Shown piece after piece: positions 10,072 to 10,920 of a stretch of 64,000 bases of DNA (within the stretch, counting starts at the first letter, position 1; every line of letters begins with the position of its first letter). Where the stretch lies: NCBI GenBank assembly GCA_000991405.1, contig LBRL01000001.1, positions 456,466 through 520,465 of the forward strand, given 5' to 3'. The DNA is from Candidatus Nomurabacteria bacterium GW2011_GWD2_36_14 (lineage in GTDB: Bacteria > Patescibacteriota > Minisyncoccia > Phycocordibacterales > UBA9973). The position numbers and the translations under genes are program-made. Under the pieces are notes generated by a model that saw only the letters and a program-made list of their open reading frames with translations, ran no database searches and was not told the origin of the DNA.

Positions 10072-10462
10072 GGGGGATGATCGGTTTCGACAATAGGAAT
10101 CATCTTATATATGCATGTAAAGTACTCAGGAATCTTTTAAAACTTCTTGGAAAAGACTAAGTGCAAACAAAGTCGCAAAAGTAAAGTCTCCATACTTCGG
10201 TATGAACAGCTTTGCTTTCGCTTTCGCCTAATTTAGGCCCGAGCGATGTCTGCCCTCTTTACATCCGATACAGAGGGTGGGCATAATTCATCGGATTACG
10301 AATTTACAACCGCTTGCTGTAAATTCCGACAATTTAAAGCTCGGTGTTTATTTTTCTTGTATGTTCTCTAGAATAAACATTTAAACCCAAGTTGAACACT
10401 CTAAACATGTAGACTTCTATAAGATTTCCCCTTGCACGCGGGTCCGATTCCCGCCATCTCCA
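10072..10462 (+). ncRNA. ssrA: tmRNA (ssrA); tag ORF ANKVAKVKSPYFGMNSFAFAFA*
   Basis: Immediately downstream of smpB; 5' GGGGAUGAUCGGUUUCGACA, 3' T-arm GCGGGUCCGAUUCCCGC + acceptor CAUCUCC pairing with 5' GGGGAUG; in-frame tag ending AFAFA-TAA. Confidence 0.8.
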
Positions 10463-10515
10463 CAATATTGAAAAAACCCTTATTTTATAAGGGGTTTTTC
10501 AATATTGTGGAGATG
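10455..10515 (+). terminator. 27-bp near-perfect hairpin spanning tmRNA 3' acceptor end (terminator/processing structure)
   Basis: CATCTCCACAATATTGAAAAAACCCTTA ... TAAGGGGTTTTTCAATATTGTGGAGATG. Confidence 0.6.
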
Positions 10516-10920
10516 AGCTTTGTCTCTGCAGACAAAGCGTGCGGGGAATCGGAGACCCTTTCCGTGTGAGAGTACTCACGAACGGAAAAGGTGTACTGAC
10601 CCTGTAAGGGTCGATAAGTGTACTCACGGTCCCGCCTCGGGAATCGGAAGACGGAGCGCCGATTAGTAAATCGTGTCGTGAGACAAGGTACGAGTCGCAC
10701 GTAAGTCATTTTACTAAATGAGGGTCGCGAGATTTTTCAACAGAAAAATACTTGTGACCGAAAGTGTATTCACGGTTCCCACCATCGCGTGTGGGAGGTG
10801 AAGACCCTGAGCTTGTGATTTTAAATTGAGATTTAAAATCACGCGAAGGATGTACAGAATCTGTAAGGTTCGATAAGTGTACTCACGGTCCCACCATCTT
10901 TTATTTTAATCGTCGACAAA
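10516..10920. other. GC-richer, highly structured intergenic region with internal direct repeats (candidate ncRNA or ssrA-associated att remnant)
   Basis: Multiple hairpins (GCTTTGTCT.CTGC.AGACAAAGC; GTGATTTTAAAT.TGAG.ATTTAAAATCAC 12 bp; GACCC.TGTAA.GGGTC); 44-nt direct repeat at 10593-10636 and 10852-10904 plus third partial copy 10765-10790. Confidence 0.3.

What the first reader, a model, noticed from the sequence alone, without database searches (positions are those of the whole stretch)
10440..10560. tmRNA 3' end buried in a 27-bp hairpin followed by an inverted partial copy of its own T-arm/acceptor
The tmRNA acceptor strand CATCTCCACAATATTG... pairs perfectly with sequence 30 nt downstream (…CAATATTGTGGAGATG). 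Immediately after, GTGCGGGGAATCGGAGACCC is an inverted imperfect copy of the tmRNA T-arm GGGTCCGATTCCCGC, interrupted by a 9-bp hairpin. So the 3' ~40 nt of ssrA and the next ~70 nt form a long imperfect inverted duplication. This could be a processing or terminator structure, or the scar of an integration or inversion at ssrA, which is a classic island target.
Basis: seen in the sequence. Interest (0 to 1): 0.55.

Follow-up and report, generated by a model that had tools for sequence, protein, structure and literature searches.

The report
Non-coding element array behind tmRNA gene
The hairpin and the inverted T-arm copy behind this tmRNA gene are real, and they are the start of three stacked copies of a small, apparently undescribed non-coding RNA element that sits behind tRNA and tmRNA genes in many CPR (Patescibacteria) bacteria and carries an antisense copy of its host gene's 3' end.

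Summary
The tmRNA gene is at 10073-10463. A 29-bp hairpin (10455-10483 / 10487-10515) pairs its acceptor 3' strand with a downstream complement. A 9-bp hairpin follows, then GGGAATCGGA, the exact reverse complement of the tmRNA T-loop and T-stem.

This is not a one-off scar. Positions 10500-10900 are a GC-rich array of three structured units (types A, B, A). Motif scans recovered about 65 related loci, all in CPR bacteria. Wherever upstream DNA is available, the units lie 116-280 nt behind a same-strand tRNA or tmRNA gene, covering 14 tRNA species plus tmRNA.

The usual layout (complete in about two-thirds of arrays) is:
- a terminator;
- an antisense copy of the host acceptor strand;
- often hairpin H, with a CUGC loop;
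- an antisense copy of the host T-stem and T-loop;
- a conserved four-way-junction RNA, supported by covariation and + strand G·U pairs;
- a direct copy of the host T-stem.

No Rfam family, paper, phage or plasmid matches. No protein gene is linked to it.

Relatives differ in presence, copy number and nesting. I favour small insertion modules that target tRNA/tmRNA 3' ends. The mechanism is unproven.

The parts
10073..10463 (+). tmRNA gene (ssrA), the host gene. T-arm 10438-10454, acceptor 3' strand 10455-10461, discriminator A10462. CCA is not encoded.
   Evidence: ARAGORN. Rfam RF00023, 115.5 bits, full length. smpB lies directly upstream at 9535-9987.
10455..10515 (+). Long hairpin. The left arm is the tmRNA acceptor 3' strand, discriminator, trailer and terminator half. 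The right arm is its complement.
   Evidence: 29-nt arms, 97% complementary, 3-nt loop (I1). The arms covary with the host acceptor sequence in relatives.
10477..10499 (.). Bidirectional intrinsic terminator core: a 7-bp G+C stem flanked by an A-tract and a U-tract.
   Evidence: Terminator scan finds it on both strands. A transcript ending at 10499 folds with a native tmRNA acceptor stem and T-arm.
10500..10515 (+). Element-borne antisense copy of the tmRNA trailer, discriminator and acceptor 3' strand (CAATATTGTGGAGATG).
   Evidence: I1. An equivalent segment is complete (at least 7 of 8 nt) in 32 of 49 arrays. It is tied to the presence of units rather than to CPR terminators in general.
10516..10540 (+). 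Module H: AG, an 8-9 bp hairpin with loop CUGC, then CGU.
   Evidence: Alignment of 23 loci: 8 of 8 pairs covary, and 98.4% of cells are paired against 59.6% in shuffles.
10541..10553 (+). Antisense copy of the host T-stem 3' strand and T-loop (GCGGGG-AATCGGA). It is the 5' strand of closing stem P1 of unit 1.
   Evidence: I17. The rc(T-loop) segment matches the host exactly in 35 of 44 units, and in 12 of 13 units whose host T-loop is non-consensus.
10540..10636 (+). Unit 1, type A: a four-way-junction RNA with helices P1, P3, P4 (loop UGUAA) and P5 (GUG-UACU-CAC).
   Evidence: Covariance model R1, 94.7 bits. Structure from RNAalifold and pair counts.
10637..10783 (+). Unit 2, type B: the same junction with a GACGGAG...GAGUC P3 base and a GGUCGCG/UGUGACC P4. 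It is enlarged by extra hairpins.
   Evidence: 3' motif at 10762-10779. Type B alignment and consensus fold with an invariant G·U pair.
10790..10895 (+). Unit 3, type A, more diverged. Its closing stem is GUGGGA/UCCCAC.
   Evidence: R1, 53.6 bits. 84% identical to unit 1 over 55 nt (D1).
10889..10899 (+). Partial direct repeat of the tmRNA 3' end (TCCCACCATCT against TCCCGCCATCT). It closes the array and is followed by a U-rich run.
   Evidence: D4. In the native-constrained fold, 10895-10901 pairs with the antisense strand 10509-10515.

Best explanation
The finding is the tmRNA-proximal end of an array of three copies (types A, B, A) of a small non-coding element family that is specific to CPR/Patescibacteria and lives at the 3' ends of tRNA and tmRNA genes.

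Each complete element supplies these parts in order:
- its own bidirectional intrinsic terminator for the host gene;
- a segment antisense to the host's trailer, discriminator and acceptor 3' strand, which prolongs the terminator stem into the 29-bp hairpin;
- often a conserved hairpin H;
- a segment antisense to the host T-stem 3' strand and T-loop;
- a conserved RNA core of about 75-120 nt that folds on the + strand into a cloverleaf-like four-way junction;
- a direct copy of the host T-stem 3' strand, sometimes extended into the acceptor strand, which closes the unit (stem P1).

Shown here: the anatomy, its conservation, the + strand RNA structure, the matching to the host gene, and the polymorphism among relatives.

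Inferred: the units are insertion modules that land next to the gene's 3' end, so the newest sits closest to the gene. Each insertion pushes older copies and older terminators outward, which builds arrays. The perfect complementarity to the host arm is then kept up by palindrome-templated correction, by selection, or by both.

Also inferred: transcripts that stop at the terminator give a normal tmRNA. Read-through transcripts carry the antisense strand, which sequesters the tmRNA 3' end in a long duplex and adds tRNA-shaped units. These units may be cut out by tRNA-processing enzymes or by RNase III.
For: Family and host association:
- All 12 genome hits are CPR.
- About 55 of the 65 metagenome loci are real.
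- In every real locus with enough upstream DNA, the unit lies 116-280 nt behind a same-strand tRNA or tmRNA gene. Hosts are Glu, Ser, Leu, Trp, Pro, Asp, Gly, Arg, Lys, Tyr, Gln, Val, Cys, His and tmRNA.

RNA structure:
- Type A: 95.7% of cells paired against 80.2% in shuffles and 35-53% when slid; 15 of 27 pairs compensatory.
- Type B gives the same junction, with an invariant G·U pair.
- H: 8 of 8 pairs covary.
- 47 G·U cells against 6 A·C cells favour the + strand.

Host matching:
- 12 of 13 units whose host has a non-consensus T-loop match it exactly.

Insertion-like behaviour:
- In an unbiased ssrA sample taken through SmpB homologues, units number 3 (window), 1 (L080), 1-2 (L084) and 0 (L085).
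- L087 is nested: an older 3'-end copy with a different, older terminator has been displaced outward. L005 and L056 show the same.
- Arrays mix core types.
- The core of window unit 1 is 95% identical to a unit behind a tRNA-Glu, while the flanks differ.
- Distal units score lower: 94.7 against 53.6 bits in the window.
- L034 unit 2 carries a 5' strand typical of another tRNA-Glu variant while its 3' strand matches its own host.

Link between the antisense strand and the element:
- An inverted copy of at least 9 nt of the gene's 3' end occurs behind 34 of 60 genes with units, against 4 of 31 without.

Folding:
- The read-through MFE (-298.0 kcal/mol) pairs 10444-10466 with 10504-10552. The fold constrained to a native tmRNA end is -282.7 kcal/mol. 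The terminated transcript folds natively.
Against: - No recombinase, transposase or reverse transcriptase is linked to the element in about 65 loci. How it would insert is therefore unknown.
- Matching to at least 14 different host genes needs either retargeting or a copying step that I cannot demonstrate.
- The direct-repeat length is variable, 5-16 nt, unlike a fixed target-site duplication.
- The array lies behind a terminator and has no sigma-70-like promoter of its own, so transcription is unproven. Yet the covariation argues for an RNA or single-strand function.
- Core identity across hosts could reflect gene conversion or strong selection rather than transposition.
- No empty and filled pair of otherwise identical sites was recovered.
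Confidence: 0.55

Rival explanations
1. A resident cis-acting RNA device, not mobile. The antisense strand and the tRNA-shaped units are selected because they act on the host transcript. They might sequester or mark read-through precursors for RNase III, or provide RNase P/Z-type processing signals, as tRNA-like t-elements do in plant mitochondria. Copy-number differences would come from local duplication and decay.
For: The antisense acceptor copy is retained far more often (32 of 49 arrays) than the distal direct copy (7 of 49). This points to pairing with the host's own 3' end as the maintained feature. There are strong structural constraints and invariant junction nucleotides across CPR phyla. 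The element is highly prevalent at ssrA in this clade. P1 (8-10 bp) is continuous with P5 (3 bp), giving a stack of about 12 bp like the acceptor and T-arm. A thermodynamic switch is predicted.
Against: 31 of 91 tRNA genes in the same contigs lack it, including 3 of 4 in this window. Arrays combine unrelated core types instead of tandem duplicates. Nested older terminators are found. Some 5' strands mismatch their host in lineage-specific ways: AAGCGAA in 6-7 units, and L034 unit 2. The array sits downstream of a terminator.
Confidence: 0.25
2. A scar of classical integrase-mediated island integration or inversion at ssrA. The repeats would be attL/attR remnants left by prophages or islands.
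For: ssrA is used by integrating elements in relatives. Large serine recombinase genes overlap the tmRNA 3' end in L081 and L082, and L083 holds a remnant. Partial direct repeats of the tmRNA 3' end occur at 10777-10786 and 10889-10898 (D4). Gene content downstream of ssrA varies among relatives.
Against: The junctions of the recombinase elements carry no palindrome and no unit. The window has no integrase within about 13 kb downstream by Pfam, no serine-recombinase homologue anywhere in it, and no further ssrA 3'-end copy. The same units occur behind 14 tRNA species with conserved RNA covariation, which att remnants would not show. There is no match in phage, plasmid or viral collections.
Confidence: 0.06
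3. A convergent tRNA-like or minihelix gene on the minus strand, whose T-loop and acceptor end resemble those of the tmRNA and which shares the bidirectional terminator.
For: Read on the minus strand, the segment gives UCCGAUU-CCCCGC...CAUCUCC-A-CAA followed by a terminator, which is a T-loop and acceptor-like 3' end. The minus strand also folds well (z = -15.4).
Against: G·U pairs are on the + strand (47 against 6 A·C cells). The wobble pairs U57·G73 (type A) and G92·U128 (type B) are conserved or invariant and would be C·A mismatches on the minus strand. GNRA-like GUAA loops read correctly only on the + strand. ARAGORN finds no tRNA there, and Rfam gives no tRNA hit at E up to 10.
Confidence: 0.04
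4. A type III toxin-antitoxin-like arrangement, in which the RNA repeats neutralise the HEPN (AbiV-like) protein encoded just downstream.
For: Tandem structured RNA repeats lie directly upstream of, and on the same strand as, a HEPN_AbiV gene at 11015-11539.
Against: The AbiV gene follows the array only in this organism (window, L079 and L086). No HEPN family recurs near the element in the other loci. The units differ from each other and are tied to the upstream tRNA or tmRNA gene.
Confidence: 0.02

Closest known systems
Integrative elements and genomic islands that target the 3' end of tRNA/tmRNA genes (background knowledge: Williams 2002 surveys of tRNA/tmRNA integration sites)
   Same: They lie at the 3' end of tRNA and tmRNA genes. 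A direct repeat of the gene's 3' end sits at the far side. The element replaces the gene's trailer and terminator. Successive insertions form arrays, with older copies displaced outward.
   Different: The units are only 100-250 bp, carry no integrase or any other gene, and have an inverted copy of the target and a covarying RNA fold. The repeat length is variable. The same core is found at many different tRNA species.
tRNA-like processing signals: plant mitochondrial t-elements (PMC1920247 appeared) and the mascRNA of MALAT1
   Same: A tRNA-shaped structure lies downstream of a gene and could be cut by RNase P or RNase Z. The four-way junction has a coaxial helix of about 12 bp.
   Different: There is no sequence relation to tRNA (no RF00005 hit). 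The T-arm analogue has only 3 bp and a 4-nt loop. Cleavage was not tested. The antisense copy of the host gene has no counterpart.
Circularly permuted (two-piece) tmRNA genes, Rfam RF04321
   Same: The order is T-arm, acceptor 3' strand, intervening loop, acceptor 5'-like strand. There are weak model hits of 29 bits over model positions 36-94.
   Different: The score is below the gathering threshold of 47. The same weak hit appears behind ordinary tRNAs (L031, L050). There is no coding piece, no tag reading frame and no pseudoknots downstream. ARAGORN reports only the standard tmRNA.
Single-strand, hairpin-mediated integration systems: CTX phage and other IMEX elements at dif, and integron attC sites (background knowledge)
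   Same: The element carries a palindromic, double-stranded mimic of its target. The target is regenerated, so arrays grow by successive insertion next to it. No integrase is needed in cis for IMEX elements.
   Different: This is purely an analogy. No Xer or IntI sites were identified, the target is a tRNA gene end, and the conserved core looks like an RNA rather than a recombination site.
REP/BIME, MITE and PATE-type small non-coding repeats
   Same: They are short, structured, non-coding, intergenic and multi-copy, and often lie just behind genes or terminators. They would be mobilised in trans, if at all.
   Different: This element is strictly tied to tRNA/tmRNA 3' ends, its flanks are matched to each host gene, it has no terminal inverted repeats of its own, and it has a complex four-way junction with G·U covariation.
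Guide-bearing mobile elements: group II intron EBS/IBS pairing, IS110 bridge RNA, IS200/605 omega RNA (background knowledge)
   Same: A segment inside the element is complementary to the adjacent target sequence and lies next to a conserved structured RNA.
   Different: No associated protein (reverse transcriptase, DEDD recombinase, TnpB) is found in or beside the element. The guide is 20-30 nt long and forms a hairpin with the target in cis. There is no Rfam match to these RNAs.

Membership tests
Intrinsic (Rho-independent) terminator | A G+C-rich stem-loop immediately followed by a U-tract | tested here: met
   A 7-bp stem at 10477-10493 followed by UUUUU, found on both strands. Equivalent A-tract, stem and U-tract arrangements occur in relatives.
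Intrinsic (Rho-independent) terminator | The terminator accounts for the whole structure, with no conserved sequence beyond the U-tract | tested here: not met
   The stem continues for 16 bp beyond the U-tract into the acceptor strand. It is followed by H and by conserved units. tRNA genes without units mostly lack the extension.
Two-piece / permuted tmRNA (RF04321) | Score at or above the Rfam gathering threshold over the whole model | tested here: not met
   29.1 bits against 47, covering model positions 36-94 of 213 only. Similar partial hits occur behind tRNAs.
Two-piece / permuted tmRNA (RF04321) | A coding piece with a resume codon, a tag reading frame and pseudoknots downstream of the 5' acceptor strand | tested here: not met
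   ARAGORN, which detects permuted tmRNAs, reports only the standard gene. The downstream sequence consists of the repeated units.
tRNA (RF00005) or tRNA pseudogene | A match to the tRNA covariance model or to ARAGORN on either strand | tested here: not met
   There is no tRNA hit in 10537-10900 at E up to 10 and no ARAGORN call. Only the junction topology resembles a cloverleaf.
Integrase-borne genomic island at ssrA | An integrase or recombinase gene inside the inserted block | tested here: not met
   Pfam on ORFs from 10925 to 23773 finds none. tblastn with the serine recombinases of relatives hits only the tmRNA overlap. No recurrent recombinase is found near units in other loci.
Integrase-borne genomic island at ssrA | Direct repeats of the gene's 3' end that bracket the insert | tested here: inconclusive
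   The window holds partial repeats only (TCCCACCATC at 10777 and 10889). Other loci have complete 13-16 nt repeats (L004, L023, L031, L055, L057, L061, L056), but the length ranges from 5 to 16 nt.
Type III toxin-antitoxin (ToxIN-like) | RNA repeats consistently paired with a downstream endoribonuclease toxin gene | tested here: not met
   AbiV/HEPN follows the array only in this organism. No such family recurs elsewhere.
Any described RNA family (Rfam 15) | A covariance-model match to the units | tested here: not met
   There is no relevant hit at E up to 10 in the window region, or at E up to 1 in six further loci.
Group I intron (in the tmRNA T-loop or in tRNA) | An interrupted host gene and a group I core (P3-P9, G-binding site) | tested here: not met
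   The host tmRNA and tRNAs are intact. There is no Intron_gpI hit. Units of 95-150 nt are too small. PMC13011429 describes CPR tRNA introns only in anticodon loops.
Self-cleaving ribozyme classes | Catalytic core motifs or demonstrated cleavage | not testable with these tools
   There is no Rfam hit to the hammerhead, twister, twister-sister, pistol, hatchet or HDV models. Activity cannot be tested in silico.

The most novel reading that the evidence does not exclude
The units are a new class of autonomous-looking but protein-less mobile RNA/DNA element. A tRNA-shaped structured RNA carries a 20-30 nt guide antisense to the T-loop-to-trailer segment of a tRNA or tmRNA gene. It is excised from read-through transcripts by tRNA-processing enzymes, possibly as a rod-like or circular RNA. 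It then re-inserts next to matching tRNA genes. In effect this would be a guide-bearing, viroid- or retrozyme-like parasite of tRNA genes in CPR bacteria. Alternatively, the conserved core could be a new ribozyme acting on the host 3' end.
Probability: 0.2. Interest if true: 0.9.

Novelty: new variant of a known kind. Interest (0 to 1): 0.72.

Why it matters
CPR/Patescibacteria have tiny genomes, yet a sizeable share of the tRNA and tmRNA genes in the contigs recovered here carry these GC-rich arrays of 100-450 bp. In the contigs sampled here, 60 of 91 such genes have a unit, although this sample was selected by the motif itself.

The element combines three things not described together before:
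- a conserved four-way-junction RNA found across CPR phyla;
- an antisense copy of the host gene's T-loop, T-stem and acceptor strand that follows single-nucleotide differences between hosts;
- modular stacking next to the gene.

If the units are mobile, they define a new kind of tRNA-gene-targeting non-coding element whose insertion machinery is unknown. If they are cis-acting, they point to an unknown layer of tRNA/tmRNA 3'-end processing or quality control in a major bacterial radiation.

There are practical consequences too. The units explain odd GC-rich intergenic blocks and palindromes behind tRNA genes in CPR genomes assembled from metagenomes. Such palindromes may be a source of assembly breaks. 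The work also yields a covariance model for annotating the units.

Tried and rejected
- Rfam at gathering and permissive thresholds gave nothing for the units.
- The minus-strand tRNA-like gene was rejected by G·U/A·C asymmetry and by loop motifs.
- The two-piece tmRNA was rejected: only weak partial model hits, which also occur behind tRNAs.
- The type III TA pairing with AbiV was rejected because the two do not co-occur.
- Phage or plasmid origin was not supported. The viral contig scan gave one chance hit in coding DNA (L013), and blastn against phage and plasmid collections found nothing.
- Clustering of neighbouring ORFs found only host housekeeping genes and an occasional small GIY-YIG ORF.
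- A search for serine recombinase homologues near units found none.
- 'RNase P-style punctuation' from 1-nt spacers between units is not robust, because spacers range from -2 to 17 nt.
- Closure of the array by a distal acceptor copy is not general: it occurs in only 7 of 49 arrays.
- Seven literature searches, including a search for the motif string, found no description. The paper on CPR group I introns (PMC13011429) concerns anticodon-loop introns only.
- About 10 of the 65 metagenome loci were chance matches in coding DNA and were excluded.
- I did not run Pfam on all 94 downstream ORFs, so a rare linked enzyme cannot be excluded.
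Full report
**1.

The window encodes smpB (9535-9987) followed by a complete one-piece tmRNA at 10073-10463 on the + strand. Its 3' part reads:
- T-stem GCGGG;
- T-loop UCCGAUU;
- T-stem CCCGC (10450-10454);
- acceptor strand CAUCUCC (10455-10461);
- discriminator A;
- then CAA rather than CCA.

The repeat finder gives 29-nt inverted arms 10455-10483 / 10487-10515 with one mismatch and a 3-nt loop. The centre, 10477-10493 plus a U-tract, is scored as an intrinsic terminator on both strands. Then comes a 9-bp hairpin with loop CUGC (10517-10538). 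After it, GGGAATCGGA (10544-10553) is the exact reverse complement of the tmRNA's TCCGATTCCC.

**2.

The inverted T-arm copy begins a 360-nt block (10540-10900) with 43-53% G+C, set in 21-30% G+C surroundings. The block consists of three tandem structured units. Each ends in AAGTGTAYTCACGGTYCC (3 hits against 0.01 expected) and each is closed by its own stem:
- unit 1, GCGGG/CCCGC;
- unit 2, GGGAAUCG/CGGUUCCC;
- unit 3, GUGGGA/UCCCAC.

**3. Relatives**

An exact-motif scan of one genome per prokaryotic species returned 12 loci. All are Patescibacteria: Paceibacteria, Saccharibacteria, Parcubacteria, Taylorbacteria and Nomurabacteria. A metagenome scan returned 65 loci, of which about 10 are chance hits in coding DNA. 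The viral, phage and plasmid collections gave nothing real.

In every real locus with enough upstream sequence, the unit lies 116-280 nt behind a same-strand tRNA or tmRNA gene. The hosts are tmRNA and tRNAs for Glu, Ser, Leu, Trp, Pro, Asp, Gly, Arg, Lys, Tyr, Gln, Val, Cys and His.

The common layout, complete in roughly two-thirds of arrays, is:
- the host T-loop, T-stem 3' strand, acceptor 3' strand, discriminator and trailer;
- an A-tract, G+C stem and U-tract;
- the reverse complement of the trailer, discriminator and acceptor strand;
- in most type A elements, 'AG', hairpin H and 'CGU';
- the reverse complement of the T-stem 3' strand and T-loop;
- the core;
- 'CACGGU' followed by a direct copy of the T-stem 3' strand, sometimes continuing into the acceptor strand.

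The window itself comes from Candidatus Nomurabacteria GW2011_GWC1_37_9 or a near-identical strain (L079 and L086).

**4. The units are a structured RNA read on the + strand**

Type A (23 sequences, 96 columns) folds into a four-way junction with these helices:
- P1;
- P3, a variable hairpin;
- P4, with a (U)GUAA loop and a conserved U·G pair at its base;
- P5, GUG-UACU-CAC.

Of all cells, 95.7% are paired, against 80.2% in shuffles and 35-53% when the partners are slid. Fifteen of 27 pairs show compensatory changes, and the covariation score is 0.429 against 0.157.

Type B (13 sequences) gives the same junction with an invariant G·U pair. P5 covaries: it is GCG/CGC in L011 and GGC/GCC in L080. 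Hairpin H covaries at 8 of 8 pairs. G·U cells outnumber A·C cells 47 to 6, which excludes a minus-strand RNA.

Junction strand lengths of 3, 2-4, 4-5 and 0 nt, and the continuity of P5 with P1, give a cloverleaf-like topology. There is no sequence match to tRNA or to any Rfam family.

In the window it finds only unit 1 (94.7 bits) and unit 3 (53.6 bits) as real units; a third, 22-bit minus-strand hit lies within unit 1.

**5. The flanks are matched to the host gene**

Among 44 units with an identified host, the segment in the T-loop position is the exact reverse complement of the host T-loop in 35. It is also exact in 12 of the 13 units whose host T-loop departs from UUCGAUU. Examples of such loops are UCCGAUU (this window), UUCGAAU, UUCAAUU, UUCGAGU and UUCAAGU.

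The adjacent 5 nt equal the reverse complement of the host T-stem 3' strand in 26 of 44 units, across many different stems.

There are exceptions that run in lineages. The variant AAGCGAA occurs in 6-7 units behind both tRNA-Glu and tmRNA. L034 unit 2 carries the 5' strand typical of another tRNA-Glu variant, while its 3' strand matches its own host. These cases show that the 5' strand travels with the element.

**6. The antisense acceptor strand belongs to the element**

It is not a general feature of CPR terminators. An inverted copy of at least 9 nt of the gene's last 14 nt occurs within 110 nt behind 34 of 60 genes with units. Behind genes without units it occurs in 4 of 31, and some of those (for example in L006) have divergent units. 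The three other tRNA genes of this window have none.

The antisense acceptor copy is complete in 32 of 49 arrays. A distal direct copy of the acceptor strand is present in only 7. The partner that is kept is therefore the host gene's own 3' end.

**7. Dynamics**

In an unbiased sample of ssrA loci reached through SmpB homologues of 80-99% identity, the states were:
- three units (the window);
- one type A unit (L080);
- a type B unit plus a fragment (L084);
- a plain terminator with only a vestige (L085);
- large serine recombinase genes abutting the tmRNA end (L081, L082) and a remnant of one (L083);
- a nested case (L087).

In L087, a new terminator, antisense copy and type B unit lie between the tmRNA and a degenerate older copy of its 3' end. 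That older copy still carries the terminator seen in L011. L005 and L056 likewise have a distal copy of the 3' end followed by a different terminator.

Arrays mix core types: A-B-A here and in L011, B-A in L034 and L029. Cores are shared across hosts. Window unit 1 is 95% identical to a unit behind a tRNA-Glu and 91% identical to one behind a tRNA-Leu, while the flanks differ. No protein family is linked to the element. Neighbours are host housekeeping genes, plus a small GIY-YIG ORF in four loci.

**8. Folding of the transcripts**

ViennaRNA was used, and pseudoknots were ignored. A transcript ending at the U-tract folds with the native acceptor stem and T-arm. In a read-through transcript to 10905, the minimum-energy fold (-298.0 kcal/mol) pairs the tmRNA T-loop, T-stem 3' strand and acceptor strand (10444-10466) with 10504-10552. 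Forcing the native tmRNA end costs 15 kcal/mol, and 10509-10515 then pairs with the distal 10895-10901. There is no sigma-70-like promoter between the terminator and the next gene's promoter at 10979-11006.

**9. Interpretation**

I commit to the following reading. The feature is the proximal end of a three-unit array of a small non-coding element family that occupies the 3' ends of tRNA and tmRNA genes in CPR bacteria. The elements behave as insertion modules that bring their own terminator and an antisense image of the host 3' end.

Shown: anatomy, conservation, strand, structure, host matching and polymorphism.

Inferred:
- Insertion happens next to the gene, with the newest copy proximal.
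- Complementarity is maintained by palindrome-templated correction, by selection, or by both.
- The RNA core serves the element's propagation or processing, possibly through RNase P, RNase Z or RNase III.

The main rival is a non-mobile cis-acting processing or quality-control device. I give this rival 0.25. The two readings are not exclusive.

**10. Novelty**

No Rfam family, no paper in the held library (seven searches, including the motif string) and no annotated phage or plasmid record matches. I file it as a new variant of a known kind, namely small non-coding elements and integrative elements at tRNA genes. There is a real chance, about 0.2, that it is something categorically new: a guide-bearing, protein-less tRNA-gene parasite, or a new ribozyme.

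Noticed in passing
window 11015-11539 (+): A HEPN_AbiV-like gene lies directly behind the array (Pfam 2.7e-7). It is present there only in this organism (L079, L086). Other relatives carry different genes at this position: HATPase_c_3 plus a DNA methylase in L080, and small ORFs in L084. The region downstream of ssrA therefore looks like a variable, defence-rich spot.
   Followed up: partly
L081 3634-5256 (-) and L082 3263-4948 (-): Large serine recombinase genes (540-561 aa) lie directly behind the tmRNA in two relatives. In L082 the ORF runs 82 nt, and in L081 about 60 nt, into the tmRNA 3' end on the opposite strand. L083 keeps a remnant of the same junction sequence without the gene.
   Followed up: partly
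L004/L022 (57 nt behind the unit), L059 (between the tRNA-Glu and the unit's 3' half), L081 2959-3225: Small GIY-YIG nuclease ORFs (about 90 aa) lie beside or inside the element, or between smpB and ssrA. They may be an independent homing-type passenger at tRNA/tmRNA flanks.
   Followed up: no
window 2954-3041 (-) and 3137-3224 (+): Two divergently oriented tRNA-Ser genes lie 95 nt apart. ARAGORN gives one of them the unusual anticodon ACT, and Rfam scores it 56 bits as a tRNA.
   Followed up: no
L001 6978-7127 (-): A tRNA-Gly gene is nested between a partial duplicate of its own 5' end (GCGGGATTAGTTTAG) and the 3' half of a unit (CGATAAGTGTATTCACGGTCCCGC). It looks as if a tRNA had replaced the unit's interior.
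   Followed up: no
window 10563-10576 and 10619-10628: The tip of P3 in unit 1 (GUGAG-AGUA-CUCAC) resembles the conserved P5 motif (GUG-UACU-CAC). The same holds in related type A units (GAGUGUACUCAC in L011, L021, L016). The cause could be an internal duplication or a shared protein or RNA contact.
   Followed up: no
window 12758-21301 (+): A metal (copper) resistance cluster follows: a CsoR-type repressor, DUF305, a P-type ATPase with an HMA domain, DUF302, an HMA-DsbD_2 protein and a cupredoxin-like protein. No integrase lies between it and ssrA.
   Followed up: partly
L006 5698-6916: Three of four consecutive tRNA genes (Cys, Lys, Leu) in a Taylorbacteria contig are each followed by a unit-like hit. 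Occupancy can therefore be very high locally.
   Followed up: partly
window 10485-10709 (-): A 74-aa ORF on the minus strand overlaps the hairpin and unit 1. Its weak tblastn similarity to the L082 recombinase is probably explained by the shared tmRNA overlap (inferred from the identity count, not checked residue by residue). It is most likely not a gene.
   Followed up: yes
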